NCBI GenBank assembly: GCA_022749845.1
Contig: JAKIWX010000004.1
Span: 1-44,691 of the forward strand
Length of the DNA: 44,691 nucleotides
From: Thermoplasmata archaeon
GTDB lineage: Archaea; Thermoplasmatota; Thermoplasmata; Lutacidiplasmatales; UBA184
Direction: 5' to 3'
A program made the position numbers and the translations under genes. Positions 1,799 through 16,237 of the stretch are shown here, one piece after another. The stretch's first letter is position 1, and the number at the start of each line of letters is the position of its first letter. The notes under the pieces are model-generated. The model saw only the letters and a program-made list of their open reading frames with translations, did no database searches and was not told where the DNA came from.

Positions 1799-2236
1799 AC
1801 CCGATTGAATGCGACTTTGACCATAGTCCTGGCGATTCTGTGGAAACAGGACCACCAGCCCGCTCAGCGGGATCGGGCCTAGATCGGAGCATTTCTCACG
1901 CCGTTCGCGGAGCGGCGTCATCAGACAACGCGAGCTGGGGGAGTCGATCACGTACTGGCCGCAACCTGTCCAAGCTCCGGAGCGAGTAGCCAGGAACCAG
2001 TGAAGCGCCTGACAGCGTCCGGTTGCGGGCTCGAAGCTAGGAACGGTCGTCGGGCTCGCTCGGTCGGCCGAACTGCCCTCAGCATGTGAGCCGCTAGCAG
2101 GAGCCCAGGCAGACCCGATTCCGTCACCCGGCCCCCGAGGAGAGGACCGGTTACCTACCGAGCCACCGGTATGCTCCCAAAGCCCCCGACGTCGATATTT
2201 CAATATACCTTGACTTAGGCTCATCGACGGGCCCCC

Positions 2237-5191
2237 ATGAGCAACATTCACGAGCCTCCGCGTGCGTGGCGAACTCTGACCCGCTCACCCGCACACCTCG
2301 GAGCTGTCCTTGCCGTGGTCGTGACGGGAATGCTCCTCCTCTCCTCCGGCCCCTCGGCCCAGGGAAGCTCCTCGCTCCGCCCTGGGGCCGTGCGGGACGC
2401 GCCCCTCTCGACAGCCCGTTCGCCGGCCGATACCCCCCACGCCTCCCCGGCCCACTACGCTCCCCCCTCGAGCTTCGTCGGCCCCTTCAACGGCACGCGC
2501 TTCAACGCGAGCTGGGACGAGATCGCTGGGGTCGGCGGAAGCACGTCGTGGGAGGTCGTGGACCCGTCGACCCACACCGTCTATGGATCGAACATCCTCG
2601 GTGGGTTCGTGAGCGCTTGGTCGGAGATGACCGGGCAGCTCTTGCGCGAATCCCCTGTCCTAGTCCACTCTCAGGGTGGCAGCGAGCTCGCCGGCCTCGC
2701 GATCGACCCGGCCCACCACCGTCTGTGGACGGCTGGACTAGAGGGAGGGGGCGGCGGGACGCTCACCATGCTCAACGAGACGACGCTCGTGCCCATCCTC
2801 AACGTATCGCTTCCAAACACGTACCACTCTCTCCCGGAATTCCTCAGCTACGACCCGTCTACCTTGAGCCTGTACGCCCGCGATCAGGGTCATGGGAACG
2901 TGACCTCCTTCAACGCCGCCACCTTGACCTTACAGAACAGCTGGGTCTGCGGCCCGTGCCAGGTGTGGCCCCAGACCCTCCTTCCCGCGCAGAATCTGCT
3001 TCTCGTACCGACCGGTGGACAGAACCTAAGCGTGCTGAACGCCTCGACGCTGCTGCTCGTCCGCAACCTCACCGACCCCATCCCGACCTTCGGGTCGACC
3101 ACCGCGGACTACGACCCGCTGTCTGGGCTCGTGTGGGTGGCGAACAAGAGCACCGCCTCCACCCCCATGGCAGAGTTCAACCTCGCCACGGGCTCGTACG
3201 TCGGCCCAATCGGGACAGGAGTACCCGCCAGTTTCGACATGGTCTACGACCCCCACAGCAACGTATTCGCGGTCGATGGAAGGGTGACCCCCCTCACATT
3301 GACCACGTACAACGCGACGACGGGGAGCGTGGTGGGGCACTACAGCCGCCCCGACCTTCCCCTACTGTCCGAGGCCTTCATGCTCGCCTTGGACCCCAGC
3401 ACGGACGGCGTCGTCGTAGGTTCGTTCGAAGGGAGTCTCGCCGTCGTCCTTTCCCTACCGACCCTGTCGGTCGTGGGCTCGGCCCCGGAGTTCGCCCTGG
3501 AGGGCACCACCTCGGCCTCCGACCCGGCGGCGGGCCTGTACTACTCGCTGGGGATTGCCCCCAGCGACCTCGTCGCGCGCCACTGGTCCAACGGCTCGAT
3601 CGCGTGGACCGAGACCCTCTCGAACCAGTTTTCGGTATCCCTCTTCGGCATGGCGGCGGACCCGGGTCTCGATCGGTTGTACGTGTCCAACGGAACCCTC
3701 CCCGGGTTCGAGGTGCTCAACGCGACCACGGGCGCGCCCGTTGGCGCTATCCCTCTCGCCCCCACCTTCAGCTTCTCCTATGTGACCATCGACTCGGTCC
3801 ACCACTGGCTCTACGCCGTGAACGGCTCGGGAAACGTCACTGTCGTCAGTACCCAATCCGGCATCCCGATCGGCACGGTGACGGCCCCGCTCGGTGCGAC
3901 GTGCGGGGGTGCCGCGGTGGCGGACAGCGTCACGGAGAGCGCCTACGTGCAGAACTGCACGAGCGCCACCGGCACGATCTACAGCATTAACGGGAGCTCG
4001 GCGACCCTCGGGCCCCGCCAGTGGCATATCGGGGGGAACCTGAACGGTGGACTGGCACTCGACCCGGTGCGTCAGATGCTCTACGTGGGAGGGGGCCTTC
4101 CGTACAACGTGACGGTGATACCGGTGCGCACTGCGGGCCCACCCTCCATGTTCCTCACGGGGGGCCAGGCGCCGGGCTACCTCGCGGTAGACCCTAACGC
4201 CGGCCTCGTCATTCTTTCCAACGTCAGTTCGGCGCACGCCTCCGTCTACAGCACCGCCACCCAGACCTTCCTGGGGACGATCCCCGTGCGACTCTCCTTG
4301 GGCGCGCTTGCGAACCCATCCGACGGCGCGTTCGTCATCAACCAGGCGCTCGACGGCTCCAACGTGCTCGTGCGCCCGCTCACGATCCCCGACGCTCCCA
4401 CCGCGCTCACCCTGGTCGCCGGGAACACCACCCTCTCGGCCTCCTGGAGCGCGGTCGGCGCCGCGGGTGCTGGTAACGCGACGATCACCGGATACACCGC
4501 CTCGCTCGGGTCGAGCGGGACCGGGCCGTGGACCGCGAACCTTTCCGTGAGCCAACCCAATGCGACCTTCACCCACCTCAACGACGGGACCACGTACTTC
4601 GTGACGGTCACCTCGCACACCGTGGCGGGGACGAGCCCGCCCGCCCCTCCCGCCTCCGCCGTGCCCGTCGGCGTACCCTACCCGCCGACCGCGGTCGCGG
4701 CCACCACGACCGGCAGCTCCTCGCTCCGGGTGAGCTGGAACGCGCCGTCCTCGACCGACGGCGCGCCGGTCCGCAACTACACGGTCGATTTCGCCACGAG
4801 CAGCGCGGGGCCGTGGACTGCCCTGAGCGCCGGCACAGCGCTCAACGTGAGCCTCACGGGACTCAAGGCGTCGACGAACTACACCGTGTTCGTCACGGCG
4901 TGGAATTCGGTCGGGGCCGGCAACGCGAGCGCCCGTGCGACGGCCAGCACCTCGGCGCCCGCGTCCACCAGCTCCTCGCCCCTCGGTGGCTGGCTCCTCT
5001 GGGCGGTCCTTGCCTTGGTGGCGTTGGTCGCGGTGGTCGCAGCGGTCCTGCTGCTCCGCCGGCGACCGAAGGGCCCGCCTCCCGGCTCGCCCGCACCCGG
5101 GAGCGCGGGCGGTGCTCCTGCTACGAGCTACGAGAACGTCCCGCCGGGCGTGGCGGGACCCCCACCGGGCGCTCCGCCGCCCGCCGCGTAG
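2237..5191 (+). CDS. Membrane-anchored surface protein: signal peptide, YVTN/YncE-like beta-propeller repeats, two fibronectin type III domains, C-terminal TM helix and Pro-rich tail
   Basis: N-terminal hydrophobic stretch; repeated (Y/V/L)DP...LYV.N blades; FN3 patterns (PDAPT..L..SW...Y...L..GTTY.V.V and PYPPT...VSW...L.ASTNY.V.V.A.N); TM followed by RRRPK; many N-x-S/T sequons. Confidence 0.85.
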   Translation: MSNIHEPPRAWRTLTRSPAHLGAVLAVVVTGMLLLSSGPSAQGSSSLRPGAVRDAPLSTARSPADTPHASPAHYAPPSSFVGPFNGTRFNASWDEIAGVGGSTSWEVVDPSTHTVYGSNILGGFVSAWSEMTGQLLRESPVLVHSQGGSELAGLAIDPAHHRLWTAGLEGGGGGTLTMLNETTLVPILNVSLPNTYHSLPEFLSYDPSTLSLYARDQGHGNVTSFNAATLTLQNSWVCGPCQVWPQTLLPAQNLLLVPTGGQNLSVLNASTLLLVRNLTDPIPTFGSTTADYDPLSGLVWVANKSTASTPMAEFNLATGSYVGPIGTGVPASFDMVYDPHSNVFAVDGRVTPLTLTTYNATTGSVVGHYSRPDLPLLSEAFMLALDPSTDGVVVGSFEGSLAVVLSLPTLSVVGSAPEFALEGTTSASDPAAGLYYSLGIAPSDLVARHWSNGSIAWTETLSNQFSVSLFGMAADPGLDRLYVSNGTLPGFEVLNATTGAPVGAIPLAPTFSFSYVTIDSVHHWLYAVNGSGNVTVVSTQSGIPIGTVTAPLGATCGGAAVADSVTESAYVQNCTSATGTIYSINGSSATLGPRQWHIGGNLNGGLALDPVRQMLYVGGGLPYNVTVIPVRTAGPPSMFLTGGQAPGYLAVDPNAGLVILSNVSSAHASVYSTATQTFLGTIPVRLSLGALANPSDGAFVINQALDGSNVLVRPLTIPDAPTALTLVAGNTTLSASWSAVGAAGAGNATITGYTASLGSSGTGPWTANLSVSQPNATFTHLNDGTTYFVTVTSHTVAGTSPPAPPASAVPVGVPYPPTAVAATTTGSSSLRVSWNAPSSTDGAPVRNYTVDFATSSAGPWTALSAGTALNVSLTGLKASTNYTVFVTAWNSVGAGNASARATASTSAPASTSSSPLGGWLLWAVLALVALVAVVAAVLLLRRRPKGPPPGSPAPGSAGGAPATSYENVPPGVAGPPPGAPPPAA

Positions 5192-5260: not shown

Positions 5261-5932
5261 ATGTATTATCTCGACGAACGGCGGGACGTGGTCCGCATCC
5301 CGCCCGACCGTCTCGGGCTCAAGCTGGAGACCGCCATCTCCGAGCTCGCCCAGCAGCAGTTCGAGGGCAAGCTCGTCGACGGCCAGAACCTCACGGTCAC
5401 GATCCAGGACGTGAAGCCGCTCGGCGAGGGCCACATCATCCACGGGGACGGCGGCGTCTACCAGGAGGTCGAGTACCGCGCCCTCCTCTTCCGACCCGAG
5501 CTCCAGGAGGTCGTCGAGGGGGCCGTCGTCGAGATTCGGAAGTTCGGTGCGTTCGTGCGGTTCGGCCCGCTCGACGGACTCCTCCACGTCTCCCAGATCA
5601 TGGACGATCGCGTGAACATCGACGAGCACAACCAGCGGCTCGTCGGCGTCGAAACGAAGCGCGACCTCAAGGTCGGCTACAAGGTCCGCGCCCGGATCGT
5701 CTCCCTCTCGCTCTCCGAGATCTCGCCCCGCGACAGCCGCATCGGCCTCACCATGCGCCAGCCCGGGCTCGGCCGGCTCGAGTGGATCGTCGAGGCGCAC
5801 AAGAAGGCGGAGGAGAAGTCCGGCAAGAAGCCTGCCGGCAAGAAGGAGGCCGCCCCCGCCAAGCCCGCGGTGAAGCCGCCGACGAAGCCGGTGGCGAAGC
5901 CCGCCGCAGCTACGGGGAGTGCCGCCGCATGA
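5261..5932 (+). CDS. rpoE1: DNA-directed RNA polymerase subunit E' (Rpo7)
   Basis: GEGHIIHGDGG, FGAFVRFGPLDGLLHVSQIMDD and RIGLTMRQPGLG; standard operon context. Confidence 0.97.
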   Translation: MYYLDERRDVVRIPPDRLGLKLETAISELAQQQFEGKLVDGQNLTVTIQDVKPLGEGHIIHGDGGVYQEVEYRALLFRPELQEVVEGAVVEIRKFGAFVRFGPLDGLLHVSQIMDDRVNIDEHNQRLVGVETKRDLKVGYKVRARIVSLSLSEISPRDSRIGLTMRQPGLGRLEWIVEAHKKAEEKSGKKPAGKKEAAPAKPAVKPPTKPVAKPAAATGSAAA

Positions 5933-6637: not shown

Positions 6638-7163
6638 GGTGCTCGAGGAGCGAAAGAATCCGCTCCTGAAGCGCACCGAACTTCTGTTCGAAGTGGCCCA
6701 TCCTGGTGGCGCTAGCCCGCGCCGTTCCGAGGTCCAGGGGGAGCTCGCGAAGCAGCTCAAGGTACCGAAGGAGCGTCTCATCGTCGAATCGATGCACGCG
6801 CGCTTCGGCATCGCCCAAACGCGCGGGGAGGCACTCGTCTACGCCACGAATGAGGCCCGCGACCGCGTCACGCGCGAGCACATCCTAATTCGAAACGGGC
6901 TCAAGGAGAAGAAGTCGGCCACTCCTCCCACACCGGAAGCCGCTCCGACGGCCCCCGAGCCAGCTGCAGCCGCGAAACCCGAGACGAAGCCCGAGCCCGC
7001 GCCCGAGGTGAAGGCCGAGAAGCCGGCCGAGCCGAAGTCGGAGGCAAGCCACGCTCCCAAGGCCGAGAAGAAAGGGGAGAAGAAGGGCGAGAAGAGGGCC
7101 GACGCAAAGGCCGAGGGCAAGCCCGATACCAAGGCATCTCCAAAGCCTCCGAAGGAGACGTAA
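6627..7163 (+). CDS. rps24e: 30S ribosomal protein S24e with long Lys/Glu/Pro/Ala-rich C-terminal extension
   Basis: NPLLKRTE, HPGGASP.R, FG...T.G.A.VY and EHILIRN. Confidence 0.95.
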   Translation: MEVKVLEERKNPLLKRTELLFEVAHPGGASPRRSEVQGELAKQLKVPKERLIVESMHARFGIAQTRGEALVYATNEARDRVTREHILIRNGLKEKKSATPPTPEAAPTAPEPAAAAKPETKPEPAPEVKAEKPAEPKSEASHAPKAEKKGEKKGEKRADAKAEGKPDTKASPKPPKET

Positions 7164-7165
7164 CG

Positions 7166-7459
7166 ATGGGCAAGGCCCGCGTCGACTTCTACGCAGCGAA
7201 GGGGGAGACGCTCACCCGCACGCACCGTAGCTGTCCGAAGTGCGGCCCCGGCATCTTCCTAGCCGAACATGCTTCGCGCCGGTCCTGCGGCCGGTGCGGC
7301 TACATGGAGTCGAAGGCGGAAACCAAGACCGAGATTAAGGCCGAGACCAAGGTCGAGGGGAAGCCGCCCGTTCCCAAGGGCAAGCCTACCCCGAAGTCGG
7401 GATCGGCCCCGACCCCTCTGGCGCCCAAGTCCAGTGCACCCCCATCGCCCCCCGCCTAG
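7166..7459 (+). CDS. rps27ae: 30S ribosomal protein S27ae with low-complexity C-terminal extension
   Basis: CPKCGPGIFLAEH..R.SCGRCGY. Confidence 0.95.
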   Translation: MGKARVDFYAAKGETLTRTHRSCPKCGPGIFLAEHASRRSCGRCGYMESKAETKTEIKAETKVEGKPPVPKGKPTPKSGSAPTPLAPKSSAPPSPPA

Positions 7460-7569
7460 TCGGGATCAGGGGAGCTCAGTCCCCGCAAGGATCTCCCAAA
7501 CATCGCCGACGGGACTCGGACCTCCGCAATCCTTACCTTTCTCGCAGATTGCGAGCGCCGCCGAGAGTC

Positions 7570-7643
7570 GGGCCCGTAGTATAGCTTGGATATCACAGAG
7601 GCCTCCGGAGCCTCGAACCCGGGTTCGAATCCCGGCGGGCCCG
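7570..7643 (+). tRNA. tRNA-Arg(CCG), CCA not encoded
   Basis: Acceptor stem GGGCCCG/CGGGCCC, anticodon stem GAGGC/GCCTC with CCG at 7605-7607, T-arm CCGGG-TTCGAAT-CCCGG. Confidence 0.95.
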
Positions 7644-8056
7644 TACACCCTACAATAGAACAAGCGGATCTGTCACCCGGCCGGGTCGGTCGACCATACC
7701 CGCTCCGGTCTAGCCGGCCACACGCACGGAGGGCGATGAACCGCGGGTCCGGGGCACTACCTCGTGGTCGGCCCCCTCAAACTTCGATGGTTGGCCAGGG
7801 CCCACCCTGTTGCCCTGTCCCAAGGCTGGATTTTCCCCCCTCAACCATATTTGGCGTGAACCCCGACCGGGAAGCGCTCCGGAGGGGGGTTTATCAGGGA
7901 AGGGATCGCGCGGCCTAAACACTTCAACCCGCCGTGGGGGGGGCGCCAGCACCGAGGGCGGTCGACGAGTCGTTCGCTCCGCTCCGACCGCGGGAGGGCG
8001 GTGGCCCATTCTCGCCGAGTAAGCTCATCCCTCCGGATCAACTGAGGGCATTCCGA

Positions 8057-11000
8057 ATGGCCGAGTCCTCCCAGCCCGTCCTCTTCCAGAGCGGTCGGTA
8101 TGTCATTCACAAGAAGCTGGGAGAAGGCGGGAAAGGGATCGTCTACAAGGCGCTGGACACCCAGCTCGACCGCGTCGTGGCCATCAAACTGCTCAAAATC
8201 GAGGGTCTCGACGAGGAAGCGCTGCAACGGTTCCGGAACGAGGCCCAACTCGCCGCACGGCTCACACACGCGAACATCGTGGCCGTCTACGACATCGGTG
8301 CCGAAGCCGGACGCCCGTTCCAGGTGATGGAGCTCGTCGATGGCCAGAGCCTGCGAGGTCTGCTCAGCTCCAGCCAGGGACCGCTCGCCTTCCCTCGCGC
8401 GCTCGAAATCGCACGGGACGTCGCCCGAGCGCTCGCCTTCGCCCACGGCAAGGGGGTGCTCCACCGGGACGTGAAACCGGAGAACATCATGCTGGCGTCC
8501 GACGGCACCGTGAAGCTGATGGACTTCGGTCTGGCCCGCGCCTTCGACCGACCGAGGCTCACCGCGCCGGGCACGATGGTCGGAACGCCTTCCTACATGG
8601 CGCCCGAAAACGCCTTGGGAAAAGAGTCGGACGAACGCTCCGACCTCTACTCGCTGGGGGCGGTCTTCTACGAGATGGCCACGGGCCGGCCCCTGTTCCG
8701 CTCAGAGGATTCGCTCAAGGTGATCTACAGTCACATCCACGACGAGCCGGCGCTCCCCTCTCGGGTCAATCCCCGACTGCCGACCGCCGTGGACCACGTC
8801 CTCCTCCGGCTCCTCGCGAAGAACCCAGGGGAACGATACGCCTCGGCCGGCGACCTGGAACGGGCGCTCACGGCAATCGGGAAAGTGTCACTCCCCCCCG
8901 AGAGCGTCGAGCCCCCAGGCCCGACGAGTACCACCCTCTCCCCGCTCCCGCACCAGGCAACTCCGGAGGGGCAGCGGATCCCGACGCCAGAAATCGGGCG
9001 CTCCCTGCCCCTGGTCGGACGGGAGGCGGAGGTGGCGAGCCTCAAAGGGTTCGTGGACCAGGTGCTGCGCGGCGACGGAGTGACGGTGCTGATCGCCGGG
9101 GAGGCCGGCATCGGGAAGAGCCGGGTCACGGACGAGATGCGTTCCTACGCCGTCCTTCGCGGACTCAGGACTCTCGTCGGACACTGCCACGAACGTGAGC
9201 GCAGCGCGCCGTACTACCCGTGGATCCAGATGATCCGTGCGTTTGTGGCCGACGCACCCGCGGCCGAGGTGGCCCGACTGTGCGGACCGAACGCGGCCGA
9301 CTTGGCCAAACTCGTCCCGGAGATCGGCGAGAAGGTCCGACTGGTCGCTCCCTCGGAGGCTCCGGACTCGCCCGAATCTCAGCGACTGCGCATGTTCGAC
9401 GCCGTCACTCGGTTCTTCGTCGAGGCATCGCAGCAATCCCCTCTCCTCCTCGATGTCTGCGACCTACATTCGGGGGATTCGGCGTCGGTCGAACTGTTTC
9501 GCCACTTCGCCCGGGGCCTCCCGAGGCACTTCCTCCTGCTCGTCGCCACCTACCGGGACGTCGAAATCGAGGAGGGCAGCACCGTCGCCCGCGTCTTGGA
9601 CGACCTCCACCGAGAGCGACTCAGCCACGTCGTGGCGCTAAAGCGACTATCGAGGGCGGAGGTCGAGCGGATGATCGGGGCGCTCTTCGACCAACCGGTC
9701 ACCCCGGAATTCCTCGACAAGGTCTACGAGCGAACGGGAGGGAACCCGTTCTTTGTGGAGGAGGTGCTTCGCTCGCTGGTCGAGGAAGGGATCCTGTTCC
9801 GGGTCGGCGACCGGTGGGAGCGCAAGTCGATCTCGGAAGTGAGTATTCCTTCCAGCGTGCGCGCGGTAGTGGCGCGAAGGCTGGAGCGTCTCAGCGACGC
9901 GACGCAGACCTTGCTGCGGGTGGCGGCCATCCTGGGGAACGAATTCACCTCGGAGGCGCTCGAGGAGACGAGCGGGGTGAACGAAGGTCGCGTCGTCGAG
10001 GCCATCGAACAGGGGCTGCGCCATCGCCTGCTCCGTGAGGAACGTCTCAGCGCCGGCCGAGTCGCCTACCGCTTCACCGACCCCCAGGTGCGCGACGTAC
10101 TGTACGACCAGACCTCGAGCATCCGTCGGCGTCGCTACCACCGACGGGCCGCCGAGGTCCTGGAAAGGTCGGCCGGCGCCCGGGCGGAGCAGGTCGCCGG
10201 GGAGCTGGCCCATCACTACCTGCTCGGCGGAGCGGTCGAGCAGTCGTTCCGATACTCGGGCCTCGCCGCCCGCCGCGCCGCCCGAATCTACGCGCACGAG
10301 GAAGCGATCCACCACTATCAGACCGCGCTCGAGCTGATGGACGAACTCCATCCGCCCGCGGAAGCGACCGAAAGCGAACCGGTTTCAGAACGCGCCCGGT
10401 TGCACGCGGAGCTCTCGATGGAACAGACCTTCCTGGGTCAGTGGGCCGGCGCGGAGACCAATGCGAACGCCGCCGCCCGGCTCTTTGAACGGGTCGGCGA
10501 CCGAGCGGCGGCGGGGCTGAGCCTCCTTCACGCCGGAGAGATCATCTACTTCGAGCTGCATCGGGGAGAGGAAGGACTCGCCAAGCTACTGCAGGCGCGC
10601 ACCATCCTCGAGAACGAGCCGGAGAACCGGTCGCACGCGGAACTCTGCTTGAGCCTCGGCTACATCGCCGAGAACACCGAAGCCCCCCAGCTGCCGTCCA
10701 GTCGGGCGCTGATGGAACGGGCCCTCGCGATCGCCCGCGCGACGGGCTCGGTCGACGTCGAGGTCCGGACCCTGGTCGCTCTGACCGGACTCGAACCGCT
10801 CTCGGACGCCGACCGAGTACGCAGCGGTCTGGCCAGCGCATTGGCGCTCGCTCAGAAGGCCGACAGCACGGAGGGCCCGTTCGTACTCCACAGCCTCGCC
10901 TGGGTCCAGCTGGTGATGGAGGGAGATTCCACCGCGGCGCTCGGAACGATCGACGAAGGATTGCGCTGGAGCCGCCGGACCCGGGACCGGACCTCGGAGG

Positions 11001-11779
11001 CGAGCTTCGAGGGGACCCTCCTTCCGGCCGCCCTGACGATCAGCGGCGAGCTCGACCGCGCCGAAGCGAACCTCGCGACCCGACGTGCGAGCGGTGCCGA
11101 GCCCTCGGGCTGGACCGACCTCGTCGAATCGAGAATCGCTCTGACCCGGGGGGACCTGGACCGAGCGGCCGCTCTGCTGGACCGCTGGAGAAAGGCGACC
11201 CCACCGGGGGCTCGTTGGCACGACCGACTCTGGCAGGGGTACCTCGAAGGCGAACTCGAGGAGGAGCGGGGGGACTCTGTGCGAGCGCTAGCCGTGATGG
11301 AACCCGCGATCCGGCTCGCCGAACAGAAGGGGTATCCGGCGTTTCGGGCGTTGGTCTACAGCCTCCTGCTCGCCCGGGCGATTCAGGTGACCCTTCGGCT
11401 GGGAGAGGTGGGGGAGGCAGGGGAGGCGGAACGCCGGGTCGCGTCGTACCGGGAGCCTCTCGACCGGATCGCGCTTCAGATCCCGAATGCGGCCACCGAA
11501 GCGCTTGCCCTGCGGTCCCGTGGCATCTGGGAGAATCATCGGGGCGAGACTCGCGAGGCGATCCAAACGCTCGAGGCATCGGTCGCGCGGTGGAGGCAAA
11601 CCCGATGGCCTCACGAGCTCGGAGAGACCCTCTACTCGCTGGGCACGGCCTACCACAAGGCCGGAGACCGTGCCGGCGCTGCCCGCGCGTTTAACGAGGC
11701 GTTGGACGTTTTCACGCGGCTCAAGGCGAGGCGGGACATTGAACGGGTACTCGGGCGCAAAGCGCTCCTGCAGGCCTAG
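8057..11779 (+). CDS. Hanks-type Ser/Thr protein kinase fused to a STAND (AAA_16-like) ATPase and a TPR-like helical region
   Basis: Kinase motifs LGEGGKG, VAIK, HRDVKPEN, DFG and APE; LVGRE; Walker A GEAGIGKS; TGGNPFF (GxP); C-terminal helical repeats. Confidence 0.92.
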   Translation: MAESSQPVLFQSGRYVIHKKLGEGGKGIVYKALDTQLDRVVAIKLLKIEGLDEEALQRFRNEAQLAARLTHANIVAVYDIGAEAGRPFQVMELVDGQSLRGLLSSSQGPLAFPRALEIARDVARALAFAHGKGVLHRDVKPENIMLASDGTVKLMDFGLARAFDRPRLTAPGTMVGTPSYMAPENALGKESDERSDLYSLGAVFYEMATGRPLFRSEDSLKVIYSHIHDEPALPSRVNPRLPTAVDHVLLRLLAKNPGERYASAGDLERALTAIGKVSLPPESVEPPGPTSTTLSPLPHQATPEGQRIPTPEIGRSLPLVGREAEVASLKGFVDQVLRGDGVTVLIAGEAGIGKSRVTDEMRSYAVLRGLRTLVGHCHERERSAPYYPWIQMIRAFVADAPAAEVARLCGPNAADLAKLVPEIGEKVRLVAPSEAPDSPESQRLRMFDAVTRFFVEASQQSPLLLDVCDLHSGDSASVELFRHFARGLPRHFLLLVATYRDVEIEEGSTVARVLDDLHRERLSHVVALKRLSRAEVERMIGALFDQPVTPEFLDKVYERTGGNPFFVEEVLRSLVEEGILFRVGDRWERKSISEVSIPSSVRAVVARRLERLSDATQTLLRVAAILGNEFTSEALEETSGVNEGRVVEAIEQGLRHRLLREERLSAGRVAYRFTDPQVRDVLYDQTSSIRRRRYHRRAAEVLERSAGARAEQVAGELAHHYLLGGAVEQSFRYSGLAARRAARIYAHEEAIHHYQTALELMDELHPPAEATESEPVSERARLHAELSMEQTFLGQWAGAETNANAAARLFERVGDRAAAGLSLLHAGEIIYFELHRGEEGLAKLLQARTILENEPENRSHAELCLSLGYIAENTEAPQLPSSRALMERALAIARATGSVDVEVRTLVALTGLEPLSDADRVRSGLASALALAQKADSTEGPFVLHSLAWVQLVMEGDSTAALGTIDEGLRWSRRTRDRTSEASFEGTLLPAALTISGELDRAEANLATRRASGAEPSGWTDLVESRIALTRGDLDRAAALLDRWRKATPPGARWHDRLWQGYLEGELEEERGDSVRALAVMEPAIRLAEQKGYPAFRALVYSLLLARAIQVTLRLGEVGEAGEAERRVASYREPLDRIALQIPNAATEALALRSRGIWENHRGETREAIQTLEASVARWRQTRWPHELGETLYSLGTAYHKAGDRAGAARAFNEALDVFTRLKARRDIERVLGRKALLQA

Positions 11780-11887
11780 GGCAGGCCCTTCTCGGATCGT
11801 CCATCGCCGCCGTACCGGCCGGCGCTCGCGGGGCAAGCGCCCCCGGTTCACGGCATGTTTAACTATGCTCCTCACCTGAACACCGAC

Positions 11888-12241
11888 GTGCCGCAATTCG
11901 CGATCGTCTTCCCCGTCCTCCCCGGAAAACGGGAGGCGCTCCGAACGTTCCTTCAGGAGCTCTCGGGGCCCCGATATGCGGAGTACGACGCGTCGTCGAA
12001 GCGGTGGGGGTTCGAGAAGGACACCTGGTTCCTGCAGACCACCCCTCAGGGGGTTCTGGTCATCTACTACGGGGAAGGCGTGGACATTCCGAAGGCCATG
12101 CGAGACTGGGCGTCGGGCCGAGACCCGTTCGACGTCTGGATGAAGCACCAGTTGAAGGAGATCACTGGCATCGACTTCAACCAGCCCTCGGACGCCCCCT
12201 GGCCGGAGCAGATTCACCGCTACGGCTTCGACGATCGCTGA
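11888..12241 (+). CDS. Small hypothetical protein, probable dimeric alpha/beta-barrel (ABM/EthD-like) fold
   Basis: FPVLPGKRE...W.LQ.TP.G...I.Y pattern; host-like codon use; TATA-like TTTAACTA about 30 bp upstream of GTG 11888. Confidence 0.7.
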   Translation: MPQFAIVFPVLPGKREALRTFLQELSGPRYAEYDASSKRWGFEKDTWFLQTTPQGVLVIYYGEGVDIPKAMRDWASGRDPFDVWMKHQLKEITGIDFNQPSDAPWPEQIHRYGFDDR

Positions 12242-12309
12242 GTGTTCGGCGGCGCGACCTCCCAGATAGCCCGACGCAACTTGGCCGCGGCGGCGACCCG
12301 GGCGGTGGT

Positions 12310-12620
12310 TCAGCCCCGACCACTCACGCTAACGGAGGTCCAACCGCTGCTATGGATGCACACCGAGCTCCCAGCGTAGTTCGCCGAGATCGTGACGGAG
12401 CCGACCGTGTCGTCGAACGTCTGCCAAGCCAGGGAGCACTGGCCGGAGCTGAGGGTGCAGACTCCGTGACTCGTGAAGGTCCCGAGCCCGGCGGCCAAGA
12501 GGCGGATCTTTCCCTTCGGGACATTCGAGCTGCTGCTTAGGTTCGCGACCTTGGTAGCGCAGGTCGTATTCGCAGGGACGGTGAGGCTCGTGGCCCTGCA
12601 GGAGACTGAGGTGCGGTCAC
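12310..12620 (-). pseudogene. 5'-truncated remnant of a surface protein (Ig-like domain, C-terminal part)
   Basis: Open frame TSVSCRATSLTVPANTTCATKVANL...GVCTLSSGQCS...VTISANYAGSS. There is no start codon at the beginning of the domain and an in-frame stop lies shortly upstream. Confidence 0.55.
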
Positions 12621-12690
12621 ACTCGATGCGATCTCCCGCGGCCTTCCCTTGCCGTGAGAACGAATCTCACCACCCAATGCTTCGAGCGGG

Positions 12691-12705
12691 TCCCGGCGGG
12701 CCCGT
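12691..12705 (+). repeat. Direct repeat of the tRNA-Arg 3' end (attR-like), copy 1
   Basis: TCCCGGCGGGCCCGT, 15/15 identical to 7630-7644. Confidence 0.85.
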
Positions 12706-12754
12706 GTTCCTTCTCCTCCCGGACCTCGAATTGGCGGGCCGGGTAGACTGGCAC

Positions 12755-12773
12755 AATTATATGGCCAATTGGC
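12755..12773 (+). promoter_or_regulatory. TATA-like element and palindromic operator of the toxin-antitoxin operon
   Basis: AATTATAT about 25-30 bp before ATG 12785, followed by the perfect palindrome GCCAATTGGC (12764-12773). Confidence 0.5.
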
Positions 12774-12784
12774 ATGGCGCGGGG

Positions 12785-13003
12785 ATGAACTCCGACACGA
12801 GTCCGACCACTATCACTGTCCCTGAGTTCGTACGCCGTGCGCTCAAGAAGTACAAGACCCCCGGGAAGACGTACGGGGACGTCATTCTGGAGTTCATCGA
12901 GGAGTACCCCTCGGCCGAGTTCCTCGCGGAAATGGAACGGAGGCTTCGAGAGGAGAAGCGGTACCCGATGGAGCAGGTACTTCGCGAAGCTGGCCTCGAG
13001 TAG
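12785..13003 (+). CDS. Antitoxin with RHH-like N-terminus (archaeal RelB-type)
   Basis: TTITV...VR..LK.YK..G.TY.DVI N-terminus; ..P.EQV.RE.GL C-terminus; directly upstream of a RelE-like gene. Confidence 0.8.
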   Translation: MNSDTSPTTITVPEFVRRALKKYKTPGKTYGDVILEFIEEYPSAEFLAEMERRLREEKRYPMEQVLREAGLE

Positions 13004-13008
13004 AGGCG

Positions 13009-13290
13009 GTGCCGGACTATCGGATTGAGGCGACGGAATCGGCTCGCCGCGAATTCCTGCGACTGCCGCCCGACGTGCAGATTTCATTCCGCTCCGGTTT
13101 CCTCCTCATCGGAAAGAGTCCCTTCAGGCGACGGGCGGGTCTTGACCTCCACCAACTCAAAGGAGGGCGGGGTCTGTGGACGATGAGGGTCCGTTCCTGG
13201 CGCGGGCTGTACCGGGCGGATGGACTCAACGTCATCTTTGTTGCTTTTCGGCCGCGCGCTTCTGCCTACCGAGATCTGGCCTCGATCTGA
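13009..13290 (+). CDS. RelE/ParE family toxin
   Basis: YRIE.T.SA.RE...LP, L..LKG..GLW.MRV..WR.LY and F.PR..AY; 93 aa, basic. Confidence 0.85.
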   Translation: MPDYRIEATESARREFLRLPPDVQISFRSGFLLIGKSPFRRRAGLDLHQLKGGRGLWTMRVRSWRGLYRADGLNVIFVAFRPRASAYRDLASI

Positions 13291-13480
13291 TCCGGGCGGG
13301 GGCGCCGGTCTCGGCCCCCCGAACTGCCCCCGGGTCAGCTGGAACCCCGAAGATGGTCGCTTCCCCGCTGGAGGTCTCGGCCCTTCCAACGGACCCCCGC
13401 TTCTTCCCTCTCTCTACCGATTCTTCCGACCGCCTCGCTCGTCGATAGCACGAGTCCAGATGCCCCACCCTTTCGGCGGC

Positions 13481-13495
13481 TCCCGGCGGGCCCGT
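13481..13495 (+). repeat. Direct repeat of the tRNA-Arg 3' end (attR-like), copy 2
   Basis: TCCCGGCGGGCCCGT, 15/15 identical to 7630-7644. Confidence 0.85.
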
Positions 13496-13779
13496 CTAAC
13501 ACTTCGTCTACGTTTCCTGACGGGCCGAGCGGACGATTCGGAGTTCGGAAGGAGCGGGGCGATGACCCGGACGCTGCCACCGATCGAGCGCTCCTCAGGA
13601 GGGAACTGGCGGCTTGAATCCCCTCGGAAGTGTGTCGATTCCGTTCCTATTCGTACCCGGGCCCGAATACGTGGTCCGTGGATGGAGGGGAGCCCGCCCC
13701 CGATGGTGGGGACCCGAGGCGGCCACCGCGAGATGCGATCTCGATCGACCCCATAGATAGCTTTCCGAAAAGGAGATGC

Positions 13780-14364
13780 ATGAGCTCGACTCCGATGAGG
13801 ACGGGATCGATGGACGAGAACGACGAGCTGCCGGAACTTGTCCTGCCGATGGAGTCTCGAGACAATTGCCGTGGATCGCCTTCGGCACAGTATTCCCTTG
13901 TGGAGTATGGCGACTACCTGGCTCCCCACTCCCGGCACGTGCGAGTCGCGGTGATCGAACTGGTCCAGGAGCTGGGGAACCACCTCTGCTTCGTCTTCCG
14001 TAACTTCCCCCAGCCGGGCCTCCACCCGCTCTCCCGACCGGCCGCGGAGGCCGCCGAAGCCGCCGGTCTTCAGGGGAAGTTCTGGCTGATGCACGACCGA
14101 CTCTTTTCCCGACAGGATGAGCTTTCGGGCGAGGTGATTCGGGAGATCGCGCGTGGGCTTCCGGTCGAGATGAAACGCTTCGAGCGAGACCTTTCCTCCG
14201 GGGCTGCCGCACGACGTGTGGAGGAGGACCTAGAGAGCGCGGAAGGGGCGGGGGTAGGCGCCGCCCCGACCTTCTTCGTCAACGGGAGGCTCCGTGTAGG
14301 ACAGTACGAGTTTCTCCCGTTGCTGAAAGCTCTGAAGGGGTCCCGGGCCGAGGATACCTCGTAA
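13780..14364 (+). CDS. DsbA/thioredoxin-fold protein lacking the CxxC motif
   Basis: G...A..LVEYGDY, FVFRNFP...HP....AAEAAEAAG.QGKFW.MHD.LF and GV...PTFFVNG; AGGAG before ATG 13780 (alternative start 13810). Confidence 0.85.
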   Translation: MSSTPMRTGSMDENDELPELVLPMESRDNCRGSPSAQYSLVEYGDYLAPHSRHVRVAVIELVQELGNHLCFVFRNFPQPGLHPLSRPAAEAAEAAGLQGKFWLMHDRLFSRQDELSGEVIREIARGLPVEMKRFERDLSSGAAARRVEEDLESAEGAGVGAAPTFFVNGRLRVGQYEFLPLLKALKGSRAEDTS

Positions 14365-14484
14365 GGCACGAGCGCGGCTCCAGAAAACGAGGGCAGGCCC
14401 GCTTGGGGATCCCATCGAGGAGGTGCCCAATGAACGACGATACGACAGAGGCCCTTCCAACGAATCTGTTCGAGTGACGGGCCA

Positions 14485-14502
14485 TTCGAGTCCCGGCGGG
14501 CC
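14485..14502 (+). repeat. Direct repeat of the tRNA-Arg 3' end (attR-like), copy 3
   Basis: TTCGAGTCCCGGCGGGCC, 17/18 identical to 7624-7641. Confidence 0.75.
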
Positions 14503-14567
14503 GTTCATCGAAACATGGGCGCACTCCCCGACAGACTCTGTCCTGTCCGGCGTTGGGGGTCTCGGCG

Positions 14568-15350
14568 TTACCGCGCGTGCTCCTGGAGGAACGGGAGGGC
14601 ATGGGGGAGCGCCAGATCGCTGCGATAGAACACGCCGAGGTGTCCGACGCCCGGAATCCGCACCATGCGGGCCGTCGGCAGCGCCTGGACGGTCCGTTCC
14701 GTCTCCCGATTCAGATCCTCCTTCTCCCCTGTCAACAGCAAGATGGGGCACCGTGTGCGCTCGAGGACCGCGCGCGGTCCGGGCCAAGCCAGCCAAGCGA
14801 CCCCGTCCAGAGCGTGCATGAGCGGGTCCCCCGACCGAACGTTCTCGTCGATCGCGTCGGGGAACCGGTCGTTCTCGGCGGCCATCCGCGCGTCCACCTC
14901 GTGACGAACCCCACCGCGGGCGACATCCAGCTCGACCTCCGAGCGCTCGTCGACCGGGGGAAGTTCGTTCAAGTTTCGGAGCCGAAGCCCACCGGTGCCC
15001 ACGAGGGCTCGCAGACGGGTAGGGTGAGCTCCGCCGAATGCGATACCCACGAGAATGCCGCTAGAGTACCCCCAGAAGGCCGAGGACTCCTCGCCGACAT
15101 CGTCGAGAACGGCCCGTACATCCTCCACGAACCATTCCATGCGGTGCGCCTCGACGGTGGTGGGACGGTCGCTCCTCCCTCGCCCACGCTGGTCGATGAG
15201 GATCGTCCGGTATCCCCTCAGACCTTCGACGTATCCCGCGTGGCGCCAGATGGAGAGGTCGCCTCCCGCACCCGTGTGAACGACGACGGCCGGACCATCG
15301 CCTTCGACCTCGTAGTGGATCCGCACTCCTCCGTCGGAGACGCTCGGCAT
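14568..15350 (-). CDS. Alpha/beta hydrolase
   Basis: IHYEVEG.GP, DQRGRGRS, nucleophile elbow GYSSG, P.LLLTGEKE and PGVGH. Confidence 0.88.
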   Translation of the reverse strand: MPSVSDGGVRIHYEVEGDGPAVVVHTGAGGDLSIWRHAGYVEGLRGYRTILIDQRGRGRSDRPTTVEAHRMEWFVEDVRAVLDDVGEESSAFWGYSSGILVGIAFGGAHPTRLRALVGTGGLRLRNLNELPPVDERSEVELDVARGGVRHEVDARMAAENDRFPDAIDENVRSGDPLMHALDGVAWLAWPGPRAVLERTRCPILLLTGEKEDLNRETERTVQALPTARMVRIPGVGHLGVFYRSDLALPHALPFLQEHAR

Positions 15351-15439
15351 CGAGCTGCAACCCCCGCCTCGGCGCCCGCGGACGCCGAGACTGCCTTCGG
15401 GAGAAGACGCAGCATCATCAGGTTTCGGAACGCGCGGAG

Positions 15440-16237
15440 TCAGGGCGGAGCGTAGGCGCAGCCGGAGGCCGGGGCAGGGCAGTCGGAGGCGACCGCCGGT
15501 TTCGCGACCGCGCTCAGGAAGAAGGAGTAGGGGAAGCTGGGCGGGAACGACGTCGAGCTCCCCACGTAGCGCCCCTGGACGTCGAAGTACGAGCGGAAGG
15601 CGGCTTGGCCCTGACAGTTCGTGCCGCATCCGTCGCAGACCTCGGGATTCGAGCTGTCCGCCTGGGGATCGACCGTCATCTCCGCGAGCTCATGGCTCAC
15701 CGCTTCCGCGTACACATCCTGCGCGTCGTCGACCGTCAGGCCGACGCCGAGGAGATTCACGAAGCTGTAGGGAATCGAGGAGCGACCGTGGTAGCCGAGC
15801 ACTCCGATGCCTCCGCTCTCCTTCGCGTCCCTATTCACCACGCCGGGAGGGTTCAACACGAGGATCGCTGCGTTCGGGCCGAGGGACGCAGCTTGCGTCA
15901 TCGCGTCGACCCACTGTTGGAGTTGTGCGTCGGCGTAGCTCCCCCCGGTCACGGTGACGGACCGCCGCGGGAGCGGGTTCCCAACCGTCACGGCGGCCGC
16001 ACCGTACTGCCGCGCGTAGGCAGAGACCGGAGACGCAGCCCGCAGCAGGTAGGCTTGCACGGTGGCGAGGTCGGCGGGCGCGAGCGACCACGGGCCGCCG
16101 GCTCCCGTGAACTCTAGGTCGGCAAGGTACACCGTACCCTGGAAGAGCCCAGTTGCCGGGGCGGCGACCGCCGGGAGCGTCGCGGCGGAGCGCTGCGCGC
16201 GCTTCCACCGCCGAGTGACGCAAATGCGCCCGCTCAT
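15440..16237 (-). CDS. Hypothetical protein with GYH and SHELAE..VDP motifs (Phi-1/EXORDIUM-like or zincin-like)
   Basis: LGYHG, AVSHELAEMTVDP, EVCDGC and a Cys-containing C-terminus. Confidence 0.65.
   Translation of the reverse strand: MSGRICVTRRWKRAQRSAATLPAVAAPATGLFQGTVYLADLEFTGAGGPWSLAPADLATVQAYLLRAASPVSAYARQYGAAAVTVGNPLPRRSVTVTGGSYADAQLQQWVDAMTQAASLGPNAAILVLNPPGVVNRDAKESGGIGVLGYHGRSSIPYSFVNLLGVGLTVDDAQDVYAEAVSHELAEMTVDPQADSSNPEVCDGCGTNCQGQAAFRSYFDVQGRYVGSSTSFPPSFPYSFFLSAVAKPAVASDCPAPASGCAYAPP

What the first reader, a model, noticed from the sequence alone, without database searches (positions are those of the whole stretch)
7624..14502. Tandem array of gene cassettes with no integrase, bounded by repeats of the tRNA-Arg(CCG) 3' end
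Seen: TCCCGGCGGGCCCGT (7630-7644) recurs exactly at 12691-12705 and 13481-13495, and a 17/18 match to 7624-7641 occurs at 14485-14502. All copies are in the same orientation and all are intergenic. They divide the region into about 5.0 kb (kinase-STAND, partner, truncated fragment), about 0.8 kb (only the TA pair) and about 1.0 kb (only the DsbA-like gene). A rough hand estimate, assuming about 68% GC, gives a chance of order 10^-3 per exact copy in this window. Established: tyrosine integrases target tRNA 3' ends and leave such attR repeats, sometimes in tandem. Inference: the units are too small to be proviruses or ICEs and encode no recombinase, so this may be an integron-like, tRNA-anchored cassette capture system mobilised in trans. 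The alternative is the eroded remains of repeated island insertions.
Basis: partly seen in the sequence, partly recalled or inferred. Interest (0 to 1): 0.85.

Follow-up and report, generated by a model that had tools for sequence, protein, structure and literature searches.

The report
Integrase-less gene cassettes stacked behind tRNA-Arg
Behind an arginine tRNA gene of an uncultured archaeon lie three small gene blocks, each ending in a copy of the tRNA's last 15 bases plus a conserved 60-base arm; they are the footprints of repeated site-specific insertion by elements that carry no integrase of their own.

Summary
The 15-mer is exact at 7630, 12691 and 13481 and occurs nowhere else in the 1.83-Mb genome. 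A fourth, degenerate copy lies at 14485-14505. All copies are co-oriented with tRNA-Arg(CCG).

New here: each non-tRNA copy is preceded by a degenerate ~60-nt arm. This arm is shared with junctions in at least 11 of 180 genomes of the same family.

Unit 2 is a RelE-type toxin-antitoxin pair. It belongs to a 0.65-1.2 kb cassette family whose similarity between genomes starts and stops at the cores within 3 nt. The family sits at different array positions and also at tRNA-Lys(CTT).

An abundant tyrosine integrase family (102 of 180 genomes, none found in this genome) sits directly after tRNA genes, including tRNA-Arg(CCG) and tRNA-Lys(CTT).

Best reading: tandem accretion of non-autonomous derivatives of these integrative elements, moved by an integrase supplied in trans. 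Newer units lie next to the tRNA and older ones decay outward.

It is not an integron. No integrase lies beside the array, the sites have no attC-like fold, and gene orientation is mixed in relatives.

Arrays at tRNA genes and integrase-less att-flanked units (CIMEs) are known in bacteria, so I rate this a new variant of a known kind. This scan has noted similar arrays before in other Thermoplasmata DNA.

The parts
7569..7644 (+). tRNA-Arg(CCG); its last 15 nt (7630-7644) are the core (attL side)
   Evidence: ARAGORN. It follows the conserved Rpb7/DUF359/S24e/S27ae operon.
7645..12630 (+). Unit 1 cargo: Ser/Thr kinase-AAA_16-TPR (STAND-like) protein 7934-11779, 128-aa partner 11855-12241, then about 390 nt without a coding signature
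   Evidence: Pfam and GC3 screen. An ortholog pair lies in G003:C45 (72.5% nt over window 8013-12239), with no tRNA or core within 1.5 kb.
12631..12705 (+). Right arm of unit 1 (12631-12690) plus core copy 2 (12691-12705, exact)
   Evidence: The arm aligns with 18 other junctions (A2) and is 85% identical over 46 nt to a junction in G005:C89.
12706..13420 (+). Unit 2 cargo: antitoxin (about 12785-13003) and RelE-like toxin (13009-13290)
   Evidence: VAPB_antitox E=6e-4, below the family cut-off. A profile of six toxin homologs hits solved RelE-family structures, best E=1.5e-5. Homologs in relatives lie between cores.
13421..13495 (+). Right arm of unit 2 (13421-13480) plus core copy 3 (13481-13495, exact)
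13496..14430 (+). Unit 3 cargo: DsbA/thioredoxin-like protein 13630-14364
   Evidence: Pfam Thioredoxin_4 3.7e-14, DSBA 7.7e-10. Homologs at 66-76% nt identity lie elsewhere in many relatives, and 9 such loci have no core within 1.5 kb.
14431..14505 (+). Right arm of unit 3 plus degenerate core copy 4 (14485-14505: one mismatch and one deletion against the tRNA's last 23 nt)
   Evidence: The PWM score is 18.2, against a single reverse-strand hit (14.1) above the cut-off of 14 in all the flanks scanned.
14568..15629 (-). First gene of the conserved right flank (alpha/beta hydrolase); homology with G007 starts here
   Evidence: Pfam. Window 14569-18324 matches G007:C43 downstream of that genome's own, different 2.9-kb variable stretch.

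Best explanation
tRNA-Arg(CCG) is an attachment site for a local family of tyrosine-integrase integrative elements. In those elements the integrase gene sits directly after the tRNA. The window holds a tandem stack of three integrase-less units of that family. Each unit consists of cargo, a ~60-nt right arm, and a 15-nt core identical to the tRNA 3' end. [quoted passage not shown] The units are non-autonomous derivatives, comparable to CIMEs or to MITEs of transposons. They are inserted, and possibly excised, by an integrase supplied in trans by a full-size relative that is absent from this assembly.

Shown: the repeats, the arms, the cassette family with core-exact boundaries at two tRNA species, the integrase family next to the same tRNA species in relatives, and the absence of any integrase in the arrays.

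Inferred: that this integrase subfamily acts on these arms, that entry is at the tRNA-proximal core, and that the units can still move.
For: (1) The exact 15-mer occurs 3 times in the genome. All three are co-oriented, lie within 6 kb, and begin with the tRNA end.

(2) Co-oriented core repeats within 10 kb of each other recur in the family: G003, G043 (two contigs), G046, G070, G077, G088 and G091, and G182, G163, G164, G161, G108 and G017. A PWM gives forward-strand hits at every array and one weak reverse-strand hit.

(3) The arm is conserved. 19 junctions align almost without gaps. The 28-mer arm+core pattern, with up to 3 mismatches, has 14 copies in 11 of 180 genomes and 0 for the backwards control.

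(4) In the RelE cassette family, homology of 80-88% runs from core to core within 3 nt in L087, L164, L166 and L173, and in L163 with an IS inside, while the flanks differ. The short form occurs in the window and L167, and at tRNA-Lys(CTT) in L169 and L170, where the core matches tRNA-Lys.

(5) The integrase family is found in 102 of 180 genomes. In 24 of 30 loci the gene starts 26-168 nt after a co-oriented tRNA. Near-identical integrases (81-82%) lie after tRNA-Arg(CCG) (G005, G018:C4) and after tRNA-Lys(CTT) (G018:C19). Full elements of 12.3 and 16.5 kb with exact 16-nt att repeats exist at tRNA-Ala and tRNA-Ile.

(6) Boundaries fit the model. In G007 the flank homology resumes at window 14569, 63 nt after copy 4. 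G003, G049 and G070 share a right flank that starts 21-110 nt after their last repeat, while their arrays differ.

(7) Distal copies are the degenerate ones in the window, L037, L057, L059 and the tRNA-Gln array.
Against: No integrase of this family was found in this genome, which is 88.5% complete. A trans-acting enzyme is therefore not shown for this organism.

No complete integrase-bearing element at tRNA-Arg(CCG) or tRNA-Lys(CTT) was recovered, so the link between the 60-nt arm and that integrase subfamily is indirect. The arms of the two complete elements at tRNA-Ala and tRNA-Ile look different.

There is no evidence of present-day mobility.

The window's own unit 2 is a diverged, shortened copy: only the coding parts align, at 70-80%.

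The cargo of units 1 and 3 sits at other, core-free places in relatives. This fits gene capture or rearrangement as well as it fits cassette transfer.

In L062 the degeneracy gradient does not hold (0, 1, 0, 1 mismatches).
Confidence: 0.6

Rival explanations
1. Decay in place. Each unit is what is left of a full-size element that integrated with its own integrase and then lost it, and most of its cargo, by deletion. Toxin-antitoxin genes survive because they resist loss. Nothing was ever moved in trans.
For: Loss of the integrase gene after integration, and degenerate remnants at tRNA genes, are described for archaea (passages read in PMC8371274, and PMC3718332). They are also described for cyanobacterial islands (passages in bioRxiv 10.1101/2020.12.28.424599). 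Distal cores are degenerate. Unit 1 has about 390 nt of non-coding DNA. Some units in relatives hold two unrelated modules, as if two units had merged (L058 CYTH+RHH-PIN, L059 NUDIX+RHH-PIN).
Against: The 1.2-kb RelE cassette has the same two ends, at the cores, in 5 loci that have different neighbours. The short form sits at two different tRNA species. Independent deletions would not give identical ends. No integrase fragment was found in 289,943 b of arrays with 8 integrase queries; the only hit lies beside a tRNA-Met outside the arrays. None was found in the junction flanks either.
Confidence: 0.25
2. A dedicated integron-like platform: a resident integrase captures promoterless cassettes through structured attC-like sites at a tRNA-derived attI.
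For: There are many small one-operon units in series, toxin-antitoxin cassettes are frequent (as in chromosomal integrons), and each unit has a conserved site at its end.
Against: No recombinase lies next to the tRNA or array in the window or in the other array loci. RNAalifold predicts only 6 pairs, all within the core region (columns 83-102), and none covaries. DNA folding of 19 arms gives a mean z of -0.15. Genes lie on either strand. The site is a plain direct repeat of the tRNA end.
Confidence: 0.05
3. Chance recurrence of a G+C-rich word, or a mis-assembly that joins strain variants at the repeat.
For: The genome is 68% G+C and the core is partly palindromic. The assembly is a fragmented MAG with duplicated tRNA contigs.
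Against: The exact copies occur only here in 1.83 Mb. 0 of 100 shuffles reach the observed count. A 15-nt repeat is shorter than usual assembly k-mers, and the copies' flanks are unrelated beyond the degenerate arm. The same architecture recurs in independent assemblies.
Confidence: 0.02

Closest known systems
Tandem arrays of tRNA-integrating islands (e.g. tycheposon-built islands of Prochlorococcus; arrays by re-use of one site in archaea)
   Same: Partial tRNA copies separate neighbouring units. Incoming elements push older ones away from the tRNA. Degenerate remnants lie further out (passages read in bioRxiv 10.1101/2020.12.28.424599; PMC6563490; PMC8371274).
   Different: In those accounts the units are integrase-bearing elements or their fragments. 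Here 0 of about 20 units in the arrays examined has an integrase or a recognisable fragment. One cassette family is also conserved end to end in its integrase-less form.
CIMEs (cis-mobilizable elements) and site-specific accretion in streptococci
   Same: Units are flanked by att sites and lack integrase and transfer genes. They sit in tandem with, or at the site of, related autonomous elements.
   Different: CIMEs are bacterial and are moved in cis after an ICE has joined them. Here the host is an archaeon, the units are 0.65-5 kb, no conjugation genes are in sight, and movement is untested. My account of CIMEs is recalled; I saw only search listings.
Integrons
   Same: A serial stack of small cassettes at a fixed site, with frequent toxin-antitoxin cassettes.
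   Different: There is no adjacent integrase, no folded attC-like site, no common orientation, and the site is a tRNA 3' end. The integron features are recalled.
SSV-type 'suicidal' integrase elements and 'gene capture' in archaeal chromosomes
   Same: Archaeal, tRNA-targeted, and leaving trapped DNA bordered by tRNA-derived repeats (PMC8371274 passages; She et al. 2001 seen only as a reference entry in PMC3718332).
   Different: Those integrases split their own gene on insertion. Here the related integrases are intact, starting 26-168 nt after the tRNA. No Int(N)/Int(C) remnants flank the units. The reading frame through the core is not conserved.
MITEs (non-autonomous derivatives of transposons)
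   Same: A short derivative keeps only the ends that the enzyme needs and depends on an enzyme made elsewhere (concept; passage in PMC3718332).
   Different: The ends here are att arms of a tyrosine-recombinase element, not inverted repeats of a transposon, and the units carry genes.

Membership tests
tRNA-integrated genomic island made by a tyrosine integrase | Direct repeat of the tRNA 3' part at the far end of the insert, with the tRNA left intact | tested here: met
tRNA-integrated genomic island made by a tyrosine integrase | Integrase gene inside the island, usually next to the tRNA | tested here: not met
   The PF00589 search of the whole genome finds only C37, a 2.9-kb contig. tblastn with 8 integrases finds nothing in the window. 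The feature is met in relatives at the same tRNA (G005:C16, G018:C4).
tRNA-integrated genomic island made by a tyrosine integrase | Insert variable or absent at the same site in relatives, with breakpoints at the repeats | tested here: met
   In G007, different 2.9-kb content is followed by the same flank from window 14569. G003, G049 and G070 share a flank after different arrays.
CIME-like non-autonomous integrative element | att sites on both sides and no recombinase or transfer genes | tested here: met
CIME-like non-autonomous integrative element | Shares its att site with an autonomous element of the same host group | tested here: inconclusive
   An integrase subfamily lies at tRNA-Arg(CCG) and tRNA-Lys(CTT) in relatives. 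No complete element of that subfamily was recovered to compare arms.
CIME-like non-autonomous integrative element | Excision or transfer dependent on the autonomous partner | not testable with these tools
   No sequencing run was listed.
Integron | Integrase gene and attI beside the array | tested here: not met
Integron | attC: imperfect inverted repeats that fold, conserved in structure rather than sequence | tested here: not met
   No covarying pairs. Mean fold z is -0.15 for 19 arms.
Integron | Cassettes in one orientation | tested here: not met
   All window genes are on +, but G003 unit 1, G043 unit 1 and others are on the opposite strand.
SSV-type (suicidal) integrase element | Integrase gene split into Int(N) and Int(C) at the two att sites | tested here: not met
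   blastx of all junction flanks finds nothing significant. The upstream open frame through the core is 0-29 codons in many junctions. A 525-aa ORF across one junction has no Pfam match.
RelE/ParE-type toxin-antitoxin pair (unit 2) | Toxin with a RelE fold or sequence family | tested here: met
   A profile of 6 homologs hits 8 RelE-family chains: Rv2866 at E=1.5e-5, archaeal RelE (3bpq, 1wmi) and E. coli RelE. The single sequence has no Pfam or NCBIfam hit.
RelE/ParE-type toxin-antitoxin pair (unit 2) | Small upstream antitoxin gene of a known family | tested here: inconclusive
   VAPB_antitox at 20.9 bits, below the cut-off of 27.9.

The most novel reading that the evidence does not exclude
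In this archaeal family, tRNA 3' ends may serve as open gene-capture platforms. An abundant integrase family, encoded elsewhere or on transient elements, would shuttle 0.65-5 kb integrase-less cassettes between tRNA-Arg(CCG) and tRNA-Lys(CTT) sites and between genomes. Each cassette is defined only by a ~60-nt arm and a 15-nt core. Now and then the system would enclose ordinary chromosomal genes between cores, as with the kinase-STAND pair and the DsbA gene here. It would then work like an integron without being one.
Probability: 0.3. Interest if true: 0.75.

Novelty: new variant of a known kind. Interest (0 to 1): 0.5.

Why it matters
If these units are moved in trans, they are a minimal form of integrative element: cargo plus about 75 nt of site. 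That would explain how toxin-antitoxin and other accessory genes spread and pile up at tRNA genes in uncultured archaea that show few classical mobile elements. It also matters for annotation: assemblies of this group often break just after this tRNA. The defined arm and core, together with a candidate integrase subfamily, give a directly testable recombination system.

Tried and rejected
Reads: the look-up of sequencing runs on window 7100-15100 listed no run, so circular junctions and empty sites could not be sought.

attC-like or RNA structure in the arm: stems seen by eye were in shifting registers. RNAalifold found none and folding energies equal those of shuffles. Rejected.

Arm as the coding end of an integrase (a lead from earlier scan notes): blastx of 400-nt flanks against three integrases gave nothing below E=0.003. 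The frame through the core is closed within 0-29 codons in many junctions. The one long ORF across a junction (L175, 525 aa) has no Pfam match. Not supported here.

Link to the only integrase of this genome (C37): it is unrelated to the tRNA-adjacent integrases. No tRNA was found on its contig by ARAGORN or Rfam, and there is no core on it. Left open.

Short inverted copies of the core 22-37 nt after copies 1-3: they are too short and too G+C-rich to weigh.

Lateral transfer inferred from cassette identity: the best case (L087) turned out to resemble the same genus as its partners, so no claim is made.

Metagenome loci anchored on S27ae: 80 loci were scanned and 17 had a co-oriented tRNA-Arg(CCG). 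Nine of those 17 end within 425 nt after it, and two (L087 and L128) show a downstream repeat.

Literature: four searches gave no paper describing integrase-less cassette families at tRNA genes in Thermoplasmata or other archaea. Supplements were not seen, and subscription journals are not covered.
Full report
**Observation**

The window carries tRNA-Arg(CCG) at 7569-7644 on the + strand. It lies directly after a conserved archaeal operon of Rpb7-like subunit, DUF359, S24e and S27ae.

The last 15 nt of the tRNA, TCCCGGCGGGCCCGT, recur exactly at 12691-12705 and 13481-13495. A fourth copy at 14485-14505 matches 21 of the tRNA's last 23 positions, with one mismatch and one deletion. All copies are on the + strand.

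- With up to 2 mismatches the window has 5 matches. Shuffles give a mean of 1.07, and 0 of 100 reach 5.
- In the whole assembly (1,833,835 b, 159 contigs, 88.5% complete) the exact word occurs only at these three places. One-mismatch hits number 5 forward and 0 reverse.

The word is therefore neither dispersed nor a chance event.

**Gene content of the units**

- Unit 1 (7645-12690): a 1281-aa Pkinase+AAA_16+TPR protein, a 128-aa partner without a family, and about 390 nt without a coding signature.
- Unit 2 (12706-13480): two small co-oriented genes. The first resembles VapB-type antitoxins below the family cut-off. The second has no Pfam or NCBIfam match by itself. A profile of it and five homologs hits solved RelE-family toxins, best E=1.5e-5.
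- Unit 3 (13496-14490): a DsbA/thioredoxin-like protein.
- The kinase domain matches PADLOC kinase models. These are generic Ser/Thr kinase matches, so I draw nothing from them.

Each non-tRNA core is preceded by a degenerate conserved arm of about 60 nt. In copies 2, 3 and 4 the motif ACG(A/C)(A/G)TC(T/C) ends exactly 23 nt before the core. The arms of copies 2 and 3 align almost without gaps with 17 junctions from relatives (alignment A2, 19 sequences, 107 columns, 18 invariant columns). The repeated unit is thus about 75 nt: an element-derived arm plus the tRNA-derived core.

**The same architecture in relatives**

The tRNA was found in 41 of 41 relatives searched, often within a few hundred bases of a contig end. 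The same holds in metagenome contigs anchored on S27ae. This fits strain-variable DNA right behind the tRNA.

The exact 14-mer core was searched in 180 genomes of the family. Only about 150 of about 350 matches were listed. Among the listed ones, co-oriented pairs or triplets within 10 kb occur in G003, G043 (two contigs), G046, G070, G077, G088 and G091. Later searches added G182, G163, G164, G161, G108 and G017.

A position weight matrix built from the copies hits the forward strand at every array. It hits the reverse strand once, weakly, in the same stretches. The matrix is circular for the copies themselves, but the strand control is fair.

In the 10 arrays whose ORFs were screened, Pfam was run on 20 unit proteins from 8 relative loci. 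19 of 20 had a match:
- Toxin-antitoxin and related modules: PIN with MazE/AbrB, MNT with HepT, RHH with PIN, AbiEii with AbiEi.
- Other cargo: CYTH, NUDIX, a P-type ATPase, NicO, PEBP, an S41-like peptidase and a TnpB.

None of the units holds an integrase. tblastn with eight integrases against 289,943 b (the whole window, contig C127 and 19 array loci) gave one hit. It lies beside a tRNA-Met in L163, outside the array.

**Do breakpoints coincide with the repeats?**

- In G007 (same genus) the operon and the tRNA are followed by 2.9 kb of unrelated DNA. Homology then resumes at window 14569, 63 nt after copy 4, and runs to 18324.
- G003 (same genus), G049 and G070 share a right flank of a PIN/RHH pair and a membrane protein. 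It begins 21, 66 and 110 nt after their last repeats. Their arrays between the tRNA and that flank differ.
- The clearest case is the family of unit 2. In L087, L164, L166 and L173, pairwise similarity of 80-88% runs from the first core to the end of the second core within 3 nt. The DNA outside differs: the tRNA itself in L087, another cassette's arm in L164, and an A+T-rich stretch in L166 and L173. L163 has the same cassette with an IS inside.
- This long form (1.2 kb) carries a small winged-helix gene, the antitoxin and the toxin.
- A short form with only the toxin-antitoxin pair (0.65-0.79 kb) is what the window holds. It also occurs in L167.
- The short form is also found directly after tRNA-Lys(CTT) in L169 and L170. 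There it ends in a homologous arm joined to TCCCCTCGGGCCCG, the 3' end of tRNA-Lys.
- A third arm+tRNA-Lys-type junction exists in G021.

An integrase-less unit with fixed ends, at different array positions and at two tRNA species with near-identical 3' ends, is hard to explain by independent decay.

**The likely enzyme**

This genome has one PF00589 match, a 402-aa integrase on the 2.9-kb contig C37. It shows no relation to the tRNA or the core.

In relatives, a 423-aa integrase starts 26 nt after tRNA-Arg(CCG) in G005:C16. Its family is found in 102 of 180 genomes, with up to 8 copies. It was not found in G000, G003, G043 or G046, which are four of the array-bearing genomes.

In 24 of the 30 best loci the gene starts 26-168 nt after a co-oriented tRNA:
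- Ala-CGC: 11
- Ile-GAT: 3
- Val: 2
- Met: 2
- Lys-CTT: 2
- Arg-CCG: 2
- Arg-TCG: 1
- Provenance: one of the 24 loci (L189) and one of the 6 without a tRNA (L198) come from unpublished genomes G171 and G172.

The spacer carries a BRE/TATA-like AAAGGTATAAG. Integrases 81-82% identical to the G005 one lie after tRNA-Arg(CCG) in G018:C4 and after tRNA-Lys(CTT) in G018:C19. These are the same two targets as the RelE cassette.

Of 13 loci checked for a far end, 10 showed the tRNA. Two of those showed an exact 16-nt repeat, 12.3 kb (tRNA-Ala) and 16.5 kb (tRNA-Ile) downstream, with no reverse-strand hits. Full-size elements therefore exist. No complete element of the Arg/Lys subfamily was recovered, so its right arm is unknown. 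A second, unrelated integrase converges on a tRNA-Arg(CCG) fragment at the end of G007:C116.

**Mechanism**

I read the locus as tandem accretion. Shown are the att-type repeats, the arms, the cassette family and the integrase family at the same targets.

Three further steps are inferred:
- The Arg/Lys integrase subfamily recognises the arm and core.
- A circular unit recombines with the intact tRNA core, so the newest unit lies next to the tRNA.
- Older units drift.

The last two steps fit the degeneracy of distal copies:
- Window: 0, 0, then a mismatch plus a deletion.
- L037: 0, 2.
- L057: 0, 0, 2.
- L059: 0, 0, 1.
- The tRNA-Gln array of this genome: 0, 1, 2.
- L062 does not follow the trend (0, 1, 0, 1).

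**Units 1 and 3**

Both end in the arm, so they are element-type units. Their cargo, however, sits elsewhere in relatives.
- The kinase-STAND pair lies in G003:C45 at 72.5% nt identity. That is about the divergence of the neighbouring core operon (75.7%). No tRNA or core lies within 1.5 kb.
- The DsbA gene lies in many genomes at 66-76% identity, with no core in the 9 loci inspected.
- In G005:C89 an arm+core follows the thrC-hom-thrB operon directly.

These cases suggest that recombination at cores also relocates or encloses chromosomal genes. I cannot tell capture from rearrangement.

**Comparison with known systems**

Arrays made by re-use of one tRNA site, with older elements pushed outward and partial tRNAs left behind, are in print for cyanobacteria and archaea (passages read). 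Degenerate remnants at tRNA genes are reported in Sulfolobus. Integrase-less att-flanked units are known as CIMEs in streptococci (recalled; listings).

Three integron features were tested and not met: an adjacent integrase, a folded attC and a single orientation. An SSV-type split integrase is also not met.

What is unusual here is an archaeal family of very small, gene-carrying, integrase-less units with conserved ends, which form most of the arrays seen. My four literature searches found no description of this. Supplements and subscription journals were not covered.

Earlier notes of this scan report similar arrays at tRNA-Leu, tRNA-Met and two tRNA-Arg genes of other Thermoplasmata. I used them as leads only.

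**Verdict**

- The locus is a tRNA-anchored stack of non-autonomous integrative units, a new variant of a known kind.
- Interest: 0.5.

Noticed in passing
Own genome, contig C127 (tRNA-Gln(TTG) at 5362-5435, - strand; repeats at about 3438, 1611 and 77): A second array in the same genome. The last 15 nt of tRNA-Gln recur 1.9, 3.7 and 5.3 kb downstream with 0, 1 and 2 mismatches. They bound units with an HxlR-like regulator plus an ArsC/LMW-phosphatase-like gene, a FAD-linked oxidase-like ORF and a 205-aa ORF. These gene labels are read by eye from the translations. No integrase is present.
   Followed up: partly
Own genome, contig C37 (2869 b), 1284-2492 (-): The only PF00589 integrase of the assembly. 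It is 402 aa, lies on a very short contig, and is unrelated to the tRNA-adjacent integrase family. No tRNA was found on the contig by ARAGORN or Rfam.
   Followed up: partly
Relatives, e.g. L186-L215: A very abundant tyrosine integrase family: 102 of 180 genomes, up to 8 copies per genome. Its gene starts 26-168 nt after a co-oriented tRNA in 24 of 30 loci, with a BRE/TATA-like box in the spacer.
   Followed up: partly
L162 (G005:C89) about 9813-9886: An arm+core junction lies directly after the threonine-pathway genes thrC, hom and thrB (gene names assigned by eye from the translations). It is followed by the flank that follows tRNA-Arg in other genomes. This suggests chromosomal rearrangement or capture at att cores.
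   Followed up: no
L087 1833-2165, L163, L164, L060 4538-4777: A small winged-helix protein (LexA_DNA_bind/MarR-like, 79-112 aa) recurs in different cassettes next to a core. It could be a regulator or a directionality factor of the element family.
   Followed up: no
L063 (G091:C6) 2294-2540 and 10474-10720; also L062, L165, L162: About 240 nt after the core, including a short conserved ORF (...LPDES.HCV...), are repeated at 72-80% identity after the tRNA and after distal cores in several genomes of one genus.
   Followed up: partly
Own genome, contigs C43/C74, C9/C150, C126/C154: Identical tRNA-Phe, tRNA-Pro(CGG) and tRNA-Gly(CCC) genes each appear on two contigs. This points to strain mixture or duplication in the MAG.
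   Followed up: no
Own genome, C106:4502 (-): An exact copy of the last 15 nt of tRNA-Ser(TGA) (whose gene is on C107) lies on another contig. It is possibly another att scar.
   Followed up: no
L043 865-1272 and L046 4977-5437: tblastx matches to the window's unit 2 pair lie about 400-1400 nt from tRNA-Met in two genomes of another genus. An integrase of the abundant family follows tRNA-Met in G014 and G182.
   Followed up: no
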